This document shows positions 723 to 11,590 of a stretch of DNA of 56,565 bases, piece after piece (the first letter of the stretch is position 1; each line of letters begins with the position of its first letter). A program made the translations under genes and the position numbers. The DNA lies in the IMG/VR virus record IMGVR_UViG_3300043788_000176, positions 1-56,565 of that record. One strand, 5' to 3'. The notes under the pieces were generated by a model. It saw nothing but the letters and a program-made list of their open reading frames with translations. It was not told the origin of the DNA and searched no databases. Origin of the DNA: a virus (lineage: Duplodnaviria > Heunggongvirae > Uroviricota > Caudoviricetes).

Positions 723-1040
723 ATGACAACCGTGTTTGCCAAGCATGAGCCATACGATGACGGCCATCTAGGCGAGGTCGGATTGGACATGGATCACGCG
801 GGCGCTCCGACAATCCGCGCGGTACTAATTGCCGGTAATCTCTACGCCGTTGATGGTTCACATAGGCTGGCGCAGGCGCACTATCGCGGGCTGATCCTCA
901 AGGTGATAGTCTTGGAGAGCGATCTCCATGGCGATCCGCGCATTCCAGCTGATCTTCCGCGATATGACTTTGATTACGTCATTGCGCTCAGGGAGAGTGA
1001 TTTCGCCGATGAGGCAGTTGTGGTCAATGCACCTGTTTGA
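723..1040 (+). CDS. ParB/Sulfiredoxin-like domain protein
   Basis: LYAVDGSHRLAQA motif (DGxHR). Start moved to ATG 723; stop lies in the tRNA-Phe anticodon loop. Confidence 0.7.
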   Translation: MTTVFAKHEPYDDGHLGEVGLDMDHAGAPTIRAVLIAGNLYAVDGSHRLAQAHYRGLILKVIVLESDLHGDPRIPADLPRYDFDYVIALRESDFADEAVVVNAPV

Positions 1041-1080
1041 AGAACAGGCCAAGGTGGTTCGATTCCATCCATCGGCACCA
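1005..1080 (+). tRNA. trnF: tRNA-Phe(GAA)
   Basis: gccgatg/catcggc, cctgt-TTGAAGA-acagg, TTCGAT, ACCA. Confidence 0.9.
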
Positions 1081-3737: not shown

Positions 3738-4214
3738 ATGGATCGTCGCCGCTGGTCAGACGCGGATTTGATTAGAGCCGTAAGCGAGGCAAAATCGATT
3801 GCTTCGGTTTTGCATATCATTGGACTCGTGCCGGCCGGCGGAAACTACAGCTTGATAAAAAGCCACATTCGGCGACTGCGGTTGGATACGAATCACTTTA
3901 CTGGACAAGGATGGAGCCGCGGCTGGGAACTCCCATCAAGAGGAACGCCGCTTGCGGAATTGCTAGTAGCTGGAATTCACCTGAACACCGGCCACATCAA
4001 AAAGCGTTTGATTAAGGACAGACTGATCGAGGAGCGATGCGCCCGCTGTGGCATATCAGATTGGCTTGGACAGAAACTAAGTCTGCATCTTGACCACAAG
4101 AATGGCGCGCGAACAGATTTTCGAATGGAAAATCTGTGGCTGTTGTGTCCGAATTGTCATTCGCAGACCCCAACGTACTGCGGGCGTAACGCATCAAAAA
4201 TTGCGCGGGCGTAG
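3738..4214 (+). CDS. HNH endonuclease
   Basis: CARCG...LHLDHKNG..DFRMENLWLLCPNCH; stop is U8-A9-G10 of tRNA-Leu(TAA). Confidence 0.93.
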   Translation: MDRRRWSDADLIRAVSEAKSIASVLHIIGLVPAGGNYSLIKSHIRRLRLDTNHFTGQGWSRGWELPSRGTPLAELLVAGIHLNTGHIKKRLIKDRLIEERCARCGISDWLGQKLSLHLDHKNGARTDFRMENLWLLCPNCHSQTPTYCGRNASKIARA

Positions 4215-4281
4215 CCGAAGGTCAGGCGGAGAGATTTAAACCCTCTTGTCCTATGGGGTTCGATTCCCCGCGCCCGCACCA
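4205..4281 (+). tRNA. trnL: tRNA-Leu(TAA) without long variable arm
   Basis: gcgggcg/cgcccgc, A73, loop TT-TAA-AC, about 7-nt variable region. Confidence 0.8.
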
Positions 4282-4286
4282 ATTTT

Positions 4287-4371
4287 GTCCGAGTGGCGAA
4301 AATAGTAGACGCGCCTGTCTCATGAACAGGTGCCTCCGGGCGTGGGAGTTCAACTCTCCCCTCGCGCACCA
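4287..4371 (+). tRNA. Class II Leu-type tRNA body carrying a CAT anticodon
   Basis: D arm gtggcgaaaatagtagacgc, long variable arm, A73, loop CT-CAT-GA (G37). Confidence 0.8.
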
Positions 4372-4376
4372 GTTCA

Positions 4377-4466
4377 GGGCGGCTAACCGGACAAGCGCAC
4401 CGGCACCGGTCGGAAACCGGTTGGAGCCTTCATGGGCTTGTGGAGCGTGACCACAGCCGCCCGCCA
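4377..4466 (+). tRNA. trnS: tRNA-Ser(GGA), C33, atypical T-loop
   Basis: gggcggc/gccgccc, G73, long variable arm, loop TC-GGA-AA, T-loop AGCGTGA. Confidence 0.8.
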
Positions 4467-4473
4467 CACTAAC

Positions 4474-4561
4474 GGTTGGGTATCCGAGCCGGCGCTCGGC
4501 CTCGTCTTGAAAGCGAGTGGCACGGAGACGTGTGCGGGTCGGCACCAGCACCCAACCGCCA
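4474..4561 (+). tRNA. trnS: tRNA-Ser(TGA)
   Basis: ggttggg/cccaacc, G73, loop CT-TGA-AA, long variable arm, T-loop GTCGGCA. Confidence 0.82.
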
Positions 4562-4565
4562 ATAC

Positions 4566-4654
4566 GGGCAGTCAACCGCGAGGGCTCGCGGCCCAGCTTC
4601 GAAACCTGGTGGTGCGTGAGAGCGCATGGGACTCGGAATCTCGGCTGCCCGCCA
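4566..4654 (+). tRNA. trnS: tRNA-Ser(CGA)
   Basis: gggcagt/gctgccc, G73, loop TT-CGA-AA, long variable arm, T-loop CTCGGAA. Confidence 0.8.
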
Positions 4655-4658
4655 ATTT

Positions 4659-4747
4659 GGGGCGTGCAAGCAGACAGGCGCACTGCGCTGGATTGCTAAT
4701 CCGGGCGTACCTTCGGGTATCGGCTTCGAATGCCGGCCGCCCCGCCA
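4659..4747 (+). tRNA. trnS: tRNA-Ser(GCT)
   Basis: G73, ctgga-TTGCTAA-tccgg, long variable arm, TTCGAA. Confidence 0.85.
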
Positions 4748-4760
4748 TTCGGAGAAGGTG

Positions 4761-4934
4761 ATGGCTTGGGTCTTAGTCGCCTGCATGGTCGTTTCATTTG
4801 GCAAGCACGATATTTGCGTTACCCCGCAACCCGCCCAGCAATTTGCAACGGTTGCGGCCTGCAAAGCAGCGGCCAATAAGATTGGGCCACCTCATGACTA
4901 TTACGGGCTGTGCAAGCCCGCGGAATTCAAATGA
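4761..4934 (+). CDS. Small hydrophobic, possibly exported Cys-containing protein
   Basis: GGAGAAGG RBS, MAWVLVACMVVSFG N-terminus; stops 1 nt before tRNA-Tyr. Confidence 0.65.
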   Translation: MAWVLVACMVVSFGKHDICVTPQPAQQFATVAACKAAANKIGPPHDYYGLCKPAEFK

Positions 4935-4935
4935 T

Positions 4936-5020
4936 GGGTCGGGAAAGCTGGTGGTTCCAGCAGTCGGTCTGTAAAACCGACCTCGAATGAGGAGAGGATC
5001 GTAACCTCACCGACCCACCA
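4936..5020 (+). tRNA. trnY: tRNA-Tyr(GTA)
   Basis: gggtcgg/ccgaccc, A73, loop CT-GTA-AA, variable arm cctc/gagg, T-loop ATCGTAA. Confidence 0.88.
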
Positions 5021-9514: not shown

Positions 9515-9652
9515 GGACGGCAGACGGCGTAGGGCAGAGGTACTTCGTAGCTCAACTGGTAGAGCATCAGTCTATCAACTGACGGTAGTTGGTTCGAATC
9601 CAACCGACCCCGCAAGGGGTTAGCTCCTCTTCCCGCTTATTCCTCTGCCGCC
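9515..9652 (+). ncRNA. Y RNA 3, YrlA-type tRNA mimic
   Basis: Same scaffold plus D arm tagctcaactggtagagc, anticodon-like stem with 6-nt loop, T arm gttgg-TTCGAAT-ccaac, no CCA. Confidence 0.88.
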
Positions 9653-9693
9653 TATTCCTGCGATCGGTTCCTTTCAACAGAGGAGTAGGTCGT

Positions 9694-11097
9694 ATGGCAC
9701 GATTGAACGTCGCGGCCCGGAAGCCGCAAACTCCACCACAGGCTACCAATCCAATCTATCCGTCGAATGTCCAGCGTACCCATGAGGGTGCGCCTGCGGC
9801 AGAGATTCCGGTCGAACTCCAACTGCGTCGCGCTGTGTGTTCCTGCCTGTTGTGGGAGGACACCCACTACGAGAGCGGCAAGGACATCGGCGACCGCATT
9901 GTCGAACTCGTCGGCAAGGTGCCGGTGGGAGTCGCGACCAACTTGGCGATGGACGCCCGCAGTCATTTCCATTTGCGGCATGCGCCGCTGCTGGTCATGG
10001 CGGCTGTCGCGGCGCCGGGTCGAGGCGGTTCACGGATGATCGGCGAGGCGCTGGCGAACGTGATCCAGCGGCCTGACGAATTGACCGAATTCCTGGCGAT
10101 CTATGCCAAGGTCTACGGCGTGCCGCCAAATGCTGTCCGCAAGCGGCTGTCGGCACAGGTCAAGAAGGGTATCGCAGCGGCGTTCGGCAAGTTCGATCGC
10201 TATCAGCTCGGCAAGTATTTCTCGCCCTCTGGTGAGAAGGGTCAGCCGATCCGCGCCCGCGATGCGATGTTCTTGACGCACCCAAAGCCGCTCGACGAAG
10301 AGCAGGCCGCTCATTGGAAGCAGCTTGTCGCCAAAAAGATCGTCGAGGAGGGTGGGGCTGACACTTGGGAAACCAAGCTGTCGAGCGGCAAGGACAAGAA
10401 GGAGACCTTCGAAGAGCAGTTGCGTGCTGGGAAGCTCGGCTATCTCGCCCTATTGCGCAATCTGCGCAACATGACGCAGGCGGGGGTTGATGAAACCCTG
10501 ATTGCCGACGCAATCGTCGGTCGTCGTGGGGCTCGCCGGGTGTTGCCATTCCGCTATGTCACGGCGGCGCGCGCTTGCCCGCAGATGGCAAAGCCGCTTG
10601 ATCAAGCACTGCAGCAAGCGATTCTTGATCTTCCGGTATTGCCGGGCCGCACCGTGGTGCTGGTCGATGTCTCAGGTTCGATGGACGCGCCAATCTCAGG
10701 CAAGTCCGAACTGAACCGCATTGACGTGGCGGCGACATTGGGAGCGATCGTGCCTGGCGACTGTCAGACATTCTCGTTCTCGCACTCGGTAGTTGCAGTT
10801 GGCCAGCCGCGCGGTCTCTCTGGCATCGAGGCGATCAAGCGCAGCCAGCAGCACGGCGGAACGTATCTCGGTCAGGCTGTCGATTTCGTGAACAGGATTG
10901 ATCATGATCGGCTCATCGTGATCACCGATGAACAGAGTCATGACCACGTGCCGGCACCGAAGGCGAGCAAGGCTTACATCATCAACGTCGCCTCATATCG
11001 AAACGGCGTCGGCTATGGCGATCGGTGGATTCATCTGGATGGATTCTCCGAGCAGACACTCCGCTTCATTGCTGAGTTCGAGAAAATCCTGAATTGA
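9694..11097 (+). CDS. rsr: Ro60/TROVE-domain RNA-binding protein (Rsr)
   Basis: THEGAPA, LRRAVCSCLLWED, IQRPDELTEFLA, LLRNLRN, VLPFRY, VLVDVSGSM and VITDEQ (vWA MIDAS); AGGAG RBS before ATG 9694. Confidence 0.96.
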   Translation: MARLNVAARKPQTPPQATNPIYPSNVQRTHEGAPAAEIPVELQLRRAVCSCLLWEDTHYESGKDIGDRIVELVGKVPVGVATNLAMDARSHFHLRHAPLLVMAAVAAPGRGGSRMIGEALANVIQRPDELTEFLAIYAKVYGVPPNAVRKRLSAQVKKGIAAAFGKFDRYQLGKYFSPSGEKGQPIRARDAMFLTHPKPLDEEQAAHWKQLVAKKIVEEGGADTWETKLSSGKDKKETFEEQLRAGKLGYLALLRNLRNMTQAGVDETLIADAIVGRRGARRVLPFRYVTAARACPQMAKPLDQALQQAILDLPVLPGRTVVLVDVSGSMDAPISGKSELNRIDVAATLGAIVPGDCQTFSFSHSVVAVGQPRGLSGIEAIKRSQQHGGTYLGQAVDFVNRIDHDRLIVITDEQSHDHVPAPKASKAYIINVASYRNGVGYGDRWIHLDGFSEQTLRFIAEFEKILN

Positions 11098-11512: not shown

Positions 11513-11590
11513 GCGCGACTAGCCCAATTTGGCAGAGGCGGCTGTTTCAAGAACAGCAGGTTCGGGGTTCGAATCCCCGGTCGCGTACCA
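11513..11590 (+). tRNA. trnL: tRNA-Leu(CAA) with short variable arm
   Basis: gcgcgac/gtcgcgt, A73, gctgt-TTCAAGA-acagc, 5-nt variable region. Confidence 0.85.

What the first reader, a model, noticed from the sequence alone, without database searches (positions are those of the whole stretch)
4287..4371. Leucine-type tRNA body with a methionine (CAU) anticodon: candidate missense tRNA
Seen: Leu-type D arm (GGCGAAA..GUAGACGC), long variable arm, A73, and loop CU-CAU-G37-A, one base from Leu(CAG). Two other CAU tRNAs are already present (413, 495). Established: bacterial LeuRS largely ignores the anticodon, and Met/Ile tRNAs have A37 and short variable arms. Inference: it could insert Leu at AUG, or at AUA if lysidine-modified.
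Basis: partly seen in the sequence, partly recalled or inferred. Interest (0 to 1): 0.78.

Follow-up and report, generated by a model that had tools for sequence, protein, structure and literature searches.

The report
Leucine-type phage tRNA with methionine anticodon
A soil phage carries a real tRNA gene built like a leucine tRNA but with the methionine anticodon CAU; it is a one-off with several uncorrected defects, so it is more likely a drifting or methionine-charged leftover than a tool for putting leucine at methionine codons.

Summary
Window 4287-4371 (+) is an 85-nt class II tRNA gene with a Leu-type D arm, a hairpin variable arm, A73, encoded CCA and the loop CU-CAU-GA. A covariance model trained only on true class II Leu tRNAs scores it 77 bits, inside their 75-93 range.

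The missense reading is neither shown nor favoured.
- The gene departs from canonical Leu tRNAs at four places: U36, A18 in place of the invariant G18, an internal C3xC70 mismatch, and a U2.G71 wobble.
- Published mutagenesis says bacterial LeuRS ignores the anticodon but needs the G18-U55 contact and a regular acceptor helix. MetRS needs little more than CAU.
- It is the only reader of A-starting codons in the array with G37.
- Other phage tRNAs with A18 pair it with G55; this one keeps U55.
- The two close relatives carry an unrelated Leu(UAG) tRNA in the same slot, and I found no orthologue.
- 23,604 codons aligned to a relative show no drift of ATG onto Leu sites.

Best reading: a tRNA of Leu(CAG/UAG) descent, shifted in anticodon, now silent (Met-charged) or crippled.

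The scan has noted remodelled phage tRNAs on other DNA before. Here too, Leu-like bodies carry Pro, Asn, Gly and Ile-like anticodons elsewhere.

The parts
4287..4371 (+). Class II, Leu-type tRNA gene with anticodon CAU, G37, A73 and encoded CCA
4321..4323 (+). Anticodon CAT (C34 A35 U36). U36 (4323) is the one base that separates it from CAG or CAA.
   Evidence: Position 36 is G or A in all 20 reference Leu tRNAs.
4324..4324 (+). G37. This fits a reader of CUN codons and is atypical for a reader of ANN codons.
   Evidence: 10 of 10 other ANN readers in the array have A37.
4304..4304 (+). A18 in place of the invariant G18. U55 (4350) is kept, so the elbow contact is not compensated.
   Evidence: G18 is invariant in alignment A3. 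A18 pairs with G55 in other phage tRNAs.
4288..4289 (+). U2 and C3 of the acceptor stem. They give U2.G71 and the C3xC70 mismatch with 4365-4366.
   Evidence: this is the only internal acceptor mismatch in the array.
4205..4281 (+). Upstream neighbour: a short-armed (77-nt) tRNA-Leu(UAA), 5 nt before the target
3738..4214 (+). HNH endonuclease ORF that abuts the tRNA pair. It is absent from relatives and from soil-run contigs.
   Evidence: Pfam HNH match is weak, below Pfam's own cut-off. Contig joints 3680>4214 and 3694>4368. No homologue in viral contigs.

Best explanation
The gene descends from a class II tRNA-Leu of the CUN-reading kind (CAG or UAG). It sits in the array slot where close relatives keep their Leu(UAG) tRNA. 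Its position 36 changed from G to U, giving CAU.

It also carries uncompensated changes at two features that bacterial LeuRS uses: G18 to A with U55 kept, and a C3xC70 mismatch beside U2.G71. It keeps G37, which TrmD should no longer methylate because G36 is gone (recalled knowledge).

The transcript, if processed, would pair with AUG. It has the full MetRS set (CAU, A73) and a damaged LeuRS set. It is therefore most likely either charged mainly with Met, which is silent, or poorly charged and decoding weakly.

In short, it is a drifting member of a fast-turnover tRNA array, not a dedicated missense tRNA.

Shown: the anatomy, the Leu descent, the lesions, the lack of an orthologue, and the lack of a codon footprint. 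Inferred: which enzyme charges it, and how well it decodes.
For: - Leu-type body: R1 gives 77.2 bits, against 75-93 for true class II Leu tRNAs and at most 66.7 for Ser/Tyr. Nearest sequences are Leu(UAG) at 76.8% and Leu(CAG) at 74%. The same T arm occurs in Leu(UAG/CAG/UAA) tRNAs.
- Slot homology: the downstream flank is the same, and relatives carry Leu(UAG) there. Phage arrays repeatedly hold the trio UAA/UAG/CAA. This phage lacks any CUN reader.
- Lesions: G18 and G19 are invariant in 20 of 20 reference Leu tRNAs. The target is the only tRNA with an internal acceptor mismatch and one of two tRNAs in the array without GG in the D loop.
- A18 goes with G55 in 9 of the 10 A18 tRNAs examined (L024 twice, L026, L083 twice, L107, L101, L090, L052). 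The target, the tenth, keeps U55.
- Literature: in Aquifex, G18C cuts leucylation about 10-fold, and a single wobble in the acceptor helix cuts it about 40-fold (PMC2377443). Deleting G18 leaves 21% activity and fails to complement in Streptomyces (PMC6614811). CAU on a tRNA-Val body gives full MetRS activity (PMC9976931).
- No recoding footprint: window ATG opposite relative Leu 7 times, the reverse 12 times, ATG kept 372 times, over 23,604 codons.
Against: - The cloverleaf, the 7-nt loop with U33, the CCA and the 5-nt spacing are intact, and the model score is high. Any decay is therefore slight or recent.
- Phage genomes tend to lose dead genes.
- Leu-like class II bodies with non-Leu anticodons recur in other phages and in one bacterial contig, so a selected new role is possible.
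- In S. coelicolor, LeuRS tolerates many tRNA changes (PMC6614811). The host is unknown, so the cost of A18 and C3xC70 to leucylation is inferred, not measured.
Confidence: 0.5

Rival explanations
1. Dedicated missense tRNA. Host LeuRS charges it through the Leu-type body and A73, and it inserts Leu at AUG at a low level. A18 and C3xC70 would act as attenuators that keep toxicity tolerable.
For: LeuRS ignores the anticodon (PMC2377443). The body scores as Leu. An engineered tRNA-Leu(CAU) is active enough to slow yeast growth (PMC11028032). Natural mistranslating tRNAs exist, such as allo-tRNAs and the tRNA-Pro variants discussed in PMC7609411 and PMC11415595.
Against: Two LeuRS determinants are damaged. 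MetRS should compete for CAU. It is a singleton with no conserved orthologue. There is no ATG-for-Leu drift. No benefit to the phage is evident.
Confidence: 0.14
2. AUA reader. Host TilS converts C34 to lysidine, so the tRNA reads AUA, carrying Ile if IleRS accepts it or Leu if LeuRS does.
For: AUA is used 189 times in the ORF set (5.6 per thousand). A relative carries Ile(UAU). Three CAU tRNAs would match the usual bacterial trio of fMet, Met and Ile2.
Against: G37 replaces A37, and t6A37 is a strong determinant for bacterial IleRS (PMC9976931). The phage encodes no TilS. The relative's Ile(UAU) sits in the slot of the window's 413 CAU tRNA, which is therefore the better Ile2 candidate.
Confidence: 0.07
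3. Non-decoding tRNA-like RNA, for example a decoy or sponge for a host tRNA-targeting nuclease or a tRNA-binding protein. It would be kept for its shape, not for its anticodon.
For: The same array holds tRNA look-alikes without an anticodon and a Y-RNA-like element beside Rsr. L024 has two Leu-like RNAs with aberrant loops.
Against: The anticodon loop here is fully canonical. Nothing links the gene to a partner protein.
Confidence: 0.1
4. Artefact or minority allele. The true population sequence is CAG (or CAA), and T at 4323 is an assembly error or a rare variant.
For: It is a single metagenome-assembled genome, and one base decides the reading.
Against: Three further departures (A18, U2, C3) would also have to be errors. 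Consensus errors are rare in Illumina assemblies (general knowledge).
Confidence: 0.05

Closest known systems
Bacterial and phage class II tRNA-Leu (CAG/UAG isoacceptors)
   Same: D arm, A14, A15:U48, G19:C56, hairpin variable arm, T arm, A73, G37, and a model score in the Leu range.
   Different: Anticodon CAU, A18, the C3xC70 mismatch and U2.G71.
Anticodon variants of tRNA-Leu that mistranslate (engineered yeast tRNA-Leu(CAU), human variants; PMC11028032)
   Same: A Leu body with a Met anticodon. The principle is that LeuRS does not read the anticodon.
   Different: Those are single-site variants of fully competent tRNAs, and their mischarging has been shown. This one is natural, phage-borne, untested, and carries extra lesions.
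Natural mistranslating tRNAs: allo-tRNAs (PMC5389517, PMC7609411), nematode V-arm tRNAs charged with Leu (recalled), tRNAProX (PMC11415595)
   Same: A long-armed tRNA whose body and anticodon disagree.
   Different: Allo-tRNAs have 8/4 or 9/3 acceptor/T stems and Ser identity, whereas this one is 7/5. Those families are conserved across genomes, whereas this one is a singleton.
Remodelled phage tRNAs (class II arms on class I anticodons, short-armed Leu tRNAs), noted earlier in this scan
   Same: The same array has short-armed Leu(UAA) and Leu(CAA). Other phages have Leu-like bodies with Pro, Asn and Ile-like anticodons.
   Different: In those, A18 is paired with G55. In L052 and L090 the discriminator fits the anticodon's amino acid. 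Here A73 fits both Leu and Met, and U55 is unchanged.
Elongator tRNA-Met
   Same: CAU, A73, U33, a 7-nt loop.
   Different: Class II body, G37 rather than A37, Leu-type D arm.

Membership tests
Bacterial class II tRNA-Leu | Overall sequence and structure profile of class II Leu tRNAs | tested here: met
   R1 was trained on 20 Leu tRNAs without the target. It gives 77.2 bits, against 75-93 for members and at most 66.7 for Ser/Tyr.
Bacterial class II tRNA-Leu | Anticodon NAG or NAA | tested here: not met
   The anticodon is CAU.
Bacterial class II tRNA-Leu | A73 discriminator, U8:A14, A15:U48, G19:C56 | tested here: met
   Read: T8, A14, A15, the last variable base T, G19, C56 and A73.
Bacterial class II tRNA-Leu | G18:U55 elbow contact | tested here: not met
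   A18 (4304) with U55. G18 is invariant in A3. Its role in leucylation is described in PMC2377443 and PMC6614811.
Bacterial class II tRNA-Leu | Regular acceptor helix | tested here: not met
   C3xC70 and U2.G71.
Elongator tRNA-Met | CAU anticodon plus A73 (the MetRS determinants) | tested here: met
   PMC9976931.
Elongator tRNA-Met | Class I body with A37 | tested here: not met
   13-nt variable arm and G37.
tRNA-Ile2 (lysidine) | CAU with A37 (t6A), and a TilS enzyme available | tested here: not met
   G37. The phage has no PF01171 match. Host TilS cannot be tested.
Initiator tRNA-fMet | Mismatch at 1:72 | tested here: not met
   G1:C72 is paired.
Allo-tRNA | 8/4 or 9/3 acceptor/T-stem layout | tested here: not met
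   7-bp acceptor and 5-bp T stem. An eighth pair, T8-C65, does not form.
Selected natural missense tRNA (any kind) | Conservation of the mismatched anticodon across diverged genomes | tested here: not met
   No orthologue in viral, metagenome or genome collections by four exact patterns, none among cultured phages, and none in the close relatives.
Selected natural missense tRNA (any kind) | Charged with the amino acid of the body, not of the anticodon | not testable with these tools
   Needs aminoacylation assays or charged-tRNA sequencing.

The most novel reading that the evidence does not exclude
The phage makes an attenuated but leucine-accepting tRNA that reads AUG. During infection a fraction of methionine positions in host and phage proteins would then receive leucine. 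This would be the first natural bacterial-virus example of deliberate Met-to-Leu mistranslation.
Probability: 0.12. Interest if true: 0.8.

Novelty: new member of a known kind. Interest (0 to 1): 0.4.

Why it matters
If the tRNA really carried Leu to AUG, it would be a natural viral case of programmed missense decoding, and it could be tested directly.

As the evidence stands, it shows how phage tRNA arrays evolve. Slots are refilled by unrelated cassettes, here next to an HNH endonuclease gene. A single anticodon change on a scaffold whose enzyme ignores the anticodon can shift a tRNA's meaning.

It is also a warning for annotation. ARAGORN calls the gene 'Met', and the same tools miss five neighbouring class II tRNAs entirely.

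Tried and rejected
- **Exact-pattern scans for orthologues.** The D arm plus anticodon stem found nothing. The D arm alone found only L019 (the same sequence as L021 and L024) in viral contigs and L026 in metagenome contigs, plus chance hits. The anticodon stem with a free anticodon found only two Tyr(GUA) tRNAs. The T arm found ordinary Leu tRNAs.
- **HNH neighbour as bait.** No relatives in viral contigs.
- **Soil runs.** Only contigs were available, and the best run holds 0.29 of the sampled words. None demonstrably spans the anticodon. Depth of about 3 over 4302-4355 in one run, with no listed difference, cannot be taken as confirmation, and that run may be the source sample. Parts without cover say nothing.
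- **L026-type tRNA in 401 sampled genomes of one bacterial class.** Only one 73% match, an ordinary Leu tRNA.
- **Idea dropped: A18 marks non-Leu anticodons.** L083 has A18:G55 on Leu(CAA) and Leu(UAG).
- **Idea rejected: 8/4 allo-tRNA fold.**
- **Unconstrained MFE folding.** It does not give the cloverleaf. This is common for tRNAs and I gave it no weight.

Full report
**Setting.** The window is the first 56.5 kb of a complete 120,565-bp uncultured soil phage with 127-bp terminal repeats. A tRNA array runs from about 120250, across the genome end, to about 12440. ARAGORN finds 24 tRNAs and Rfam finds others. All the tRNAs are on the + strand and nearly all encode CCA. The phage encodes no TilS, no class Ia synthetase core and no MetRS core, so charging and modification depend on the host.

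**The observation.** Window 4287-4371 is a tRNA by three methods:
- ARAGORN calls 'Met'(cat), 85 nt.
- Rfam tRNA gives 41.4 bits.
- A covariance model (R1) built from 20 class II tRNAs with Leu anticodons, taken from phages and bacteria and excluding the target, gives 77.2 bits.

True class II Leu tRNAs score 75-93 bits with R1, and the best Ser or Tyr tRNA scores 66.7. Among cultured phages, every annotated hit that covers at least three quarters of the gene is tRNA-Leu, apart from one weak tRNA-Ser hit. The nearest sequences are a Leu(UAG) at 76.8% and Caulobacter-phage Leu(CAG) tRNAs at 74%. The T arm is shared with Leu(UAG), Leu(CAG) and Leu(UAA) tRNAs of other phages. The loop is CU-CAU-GA, the discriminator is A73, and the variable arm is a 3-bp hairpin. 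With the acceptor stem enforced, the RNA folds as a full class II cloverleaf.

In alignment A3, G18 and G19 are invariant in 20 of 20 class II Leu tRNAs. By eye, all 48 Leu-anticodon tRNAs listed show GG in the D loop. The target has A18 (4304). Its acceptor stem has U2.G71 and a C3xC70 mismatch. Among the array members with clear boundaries, it is the only one with an internal acceptor mismatch. It is also the only reader of an A-starting codon with G37; the 10 others have A37.

A degenerate D-arm scan found other phage tRNAs with A18. In nine of the ten A18 tRNAs examined, position 55 is G rather than U: L083 Leu(CAA) and Leu(UAG), L107, L101, L026, both L024 RNAs, L052 and L090. A18:G55 therefore looks like a compensated swap of the G18:U55 contact. 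The target, the tenth, keeps U55 and so is uncompensated.

**Context in relatives.** Two close relatives (Rsr protein 98% identical; genome 82-97% identical over about 85 kb) keep the same order: Glu(CUC), Leu(UAA), a 5-nt spacer, then a second tRNA, followed in one of them (L004) by the same downstream flank. Their second tRNA is an unrelated 79-nt short-armed Leu(UAG). Neither relative has a second class II Leu-type tRNA anywhere.

Soil-run contigs show further versions of this slot, some of them without the HNH endonuclease ORF (3738-4214) that abuts the pair in the window. The slot is thus a cassette site. Its usual occupant reads CUN codons, and the window phage has no CUN reader although CUG is its commonest Leu codon. 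The simplest history is a class II Leu(CAG or UAG) cassette whose position 36 became U.

**Who would charge it.** Published mutagenesis shows the following.
- Bacterial LeuRS is indifferent to the anticodon. It depends on A73, U8-A14, G18-U55, G19-C56 and a regular acceptor helix.
- In Aquifex, G18C leaves about 10% of activity and a single wobble at 4:69 leaves about 3% (PMC2377443).
- In S. coelicolor, deleting G18 from the class II tRNA-Leu(UAA) leaves 21% and abolishes complementation (PMC6614811).
- MetRS reads the anticodon. A tRNA-Val carrying CAU is as good a substrate as tRNA-Met, and unmodified tRNA-Ile2 accepts Met (PMC9976931).
- Bacterial IleRS relies strongly on t6A37 (same review), which G37 excludes.

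The target therefore has the complete Met set and a damaged Leu set. I infer that Met charging, or poor charging, is more likely than efficient leucylation. This is inference: the host is unknown, and LeuRS requirements vary between species. In Streptomyces, for example, A73 is dispensable.

**Test for recoding.** I aligned 23,604 codons of the window phage to relative G403. ATG in the window faces a Leu codon in the relative 7 times, the reverse occurs 12 times, and ATG is conserved 372 times. ATG is not drifting onto Leu positions. This excludes reassignment of the codon but not low-level mistranslation.

**Wider pattern.** Leu-like class II bodies with other anticodons do recur:
- L026, a soil bacterial contig, has a well-formed one with CCC and A73.
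- L024, a 570-kb contig of 37% GC, has two with aberrant loops, CAUAUGG and a 6-nt loop.
- L107 and L090 carry UGG (Pro), both with A73; that fits Pro by recalled identity rules, though L107 has other Leu-type features and an anomalous T stem.
- L052 carries GUU (Asn) with G73.

In L052 and L090 at least, the discriminator fits the anticodon's own amino acid, which suggests scaffold re-use rather than missense. Earlier notes of this scan describe the same habit on other DNA. This keeps a selected new role for the target possible. But the target differs from these by its uncompensated A18, its acceptor mismatch, and its being a singleton.

**Verdict.** This is a real and unusual gene. It is best read as a Leu(NAG)-derived tRNA with an anticodon shift and uncorrected lesions, so it is silent or weak in function. 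I put the dedicated Leu-at-AUG reading at roughly one in seven.

Noticed in passing
window 4377-5020: Five class II tRNAs that ARAGORN and Rfam both miss: Ser(GGA) at about 4377, Ser(UGA) at about 4474, Ser(CGA) at about 4566, Ser(GCU) at about 4658 (the Ser genes end in G-CCA) and Tyr(GUA) at about 4936 (A73). Several have non-canonical T loops.
   Followed up: partly
window 4205-4281 and 11513-11590: Leu(UAA) and Leu(CAA) tRNAs with short variable regions (77-78 nt). The relatives' Leu(UAG) and Leu(CAA) are short-armed too. Type I tRNA-Leu is documented in Streptomyces (PMC6614811). In addition, 31-nt matches to the target's 3' end lie unannotated in many mycobacteriophages. Both hint at an actinobacterial host.
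   Followed up: partly
window 1005-1080, 4314-4330, 11513-11590: Phe(GAA), the CAU tRNA and Leu(CAA) share almost the same anticodon arm: a CTGT/ACAG stem with G37 and A38. Two Tyr(GUA) tRNAs of unrelated phages have the identical stem.
   Followed up: no
window 9545-11097: A Ro60/TROVE-VWA (Rsr-like) gene, preceded by a tRNA-like element that lacks an acceptor stem (Rfam tRNA positions 5-66). This looks like a Y-RNA/Rsr module inside the tRNA array.
   Followed up: no
window 3738-4214: An HNH endonuclease ORF whose stop codon lies inside the next tRNA. It is missing in relatives and in soil-run contigs that join 3680>4214 or 3694>4368. It may drive the cassette exchange at this slot.
   Followed up: partly
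L026:536-620: A soil bacterial contig (62% GC, with a pterin-4a-carbinolamine dehydratase-like ORF (recognised by eye, not searched) nearby) carries a well-formed Leu-like class II tRNA. It has anticodon CCC, A73, A18:G55 and no encoded CCA. I did not find it in 401 sampled genomes of one class.
   Followed up: partly
L024:1109-1204 and L024:1842-1934: Two Leu-like class II RNAs in a 570-kb, 37% GC contig. Both have A18, T loops CGCAAAT/TGCAAAT, A73-CCA and abnormal anticodon loops (CAUAUGG with A33, and a 6-nt AUUACG).
   Followed up: partly
L083:727-813, 1463-1548; L107:2354-2458; L052:332-416; L090:2681-2788: A18 covaries with G55 in phage class II tRNAs that have a Leu-type D arm. The anticodons are Leu(CAA), Leu(UAG), Pro(UGG) twice and Asn(GUU). 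For Asn the discriminator is G73.
   Followed up: partly
L002:110-291 (Caulobacter phage CcrRogue) and L006:4615-4700: Class II tRNAs (86-90 nt) with Lys anticodons CUU/UUU and a U73 discriminator, in unrelated phages.
   Followed up: no
L010:7943-8034 and L017:14101-14194: Ile(UAU) tRNAs of 92-94 nt.
   Followed up: no
L033:1999-2070: A Leu-like tRNA look-alike with acceptor, D and T arms but only about 15 nt where the anticodon and variable arms should be (R1 55 bits).
   Followed up: no
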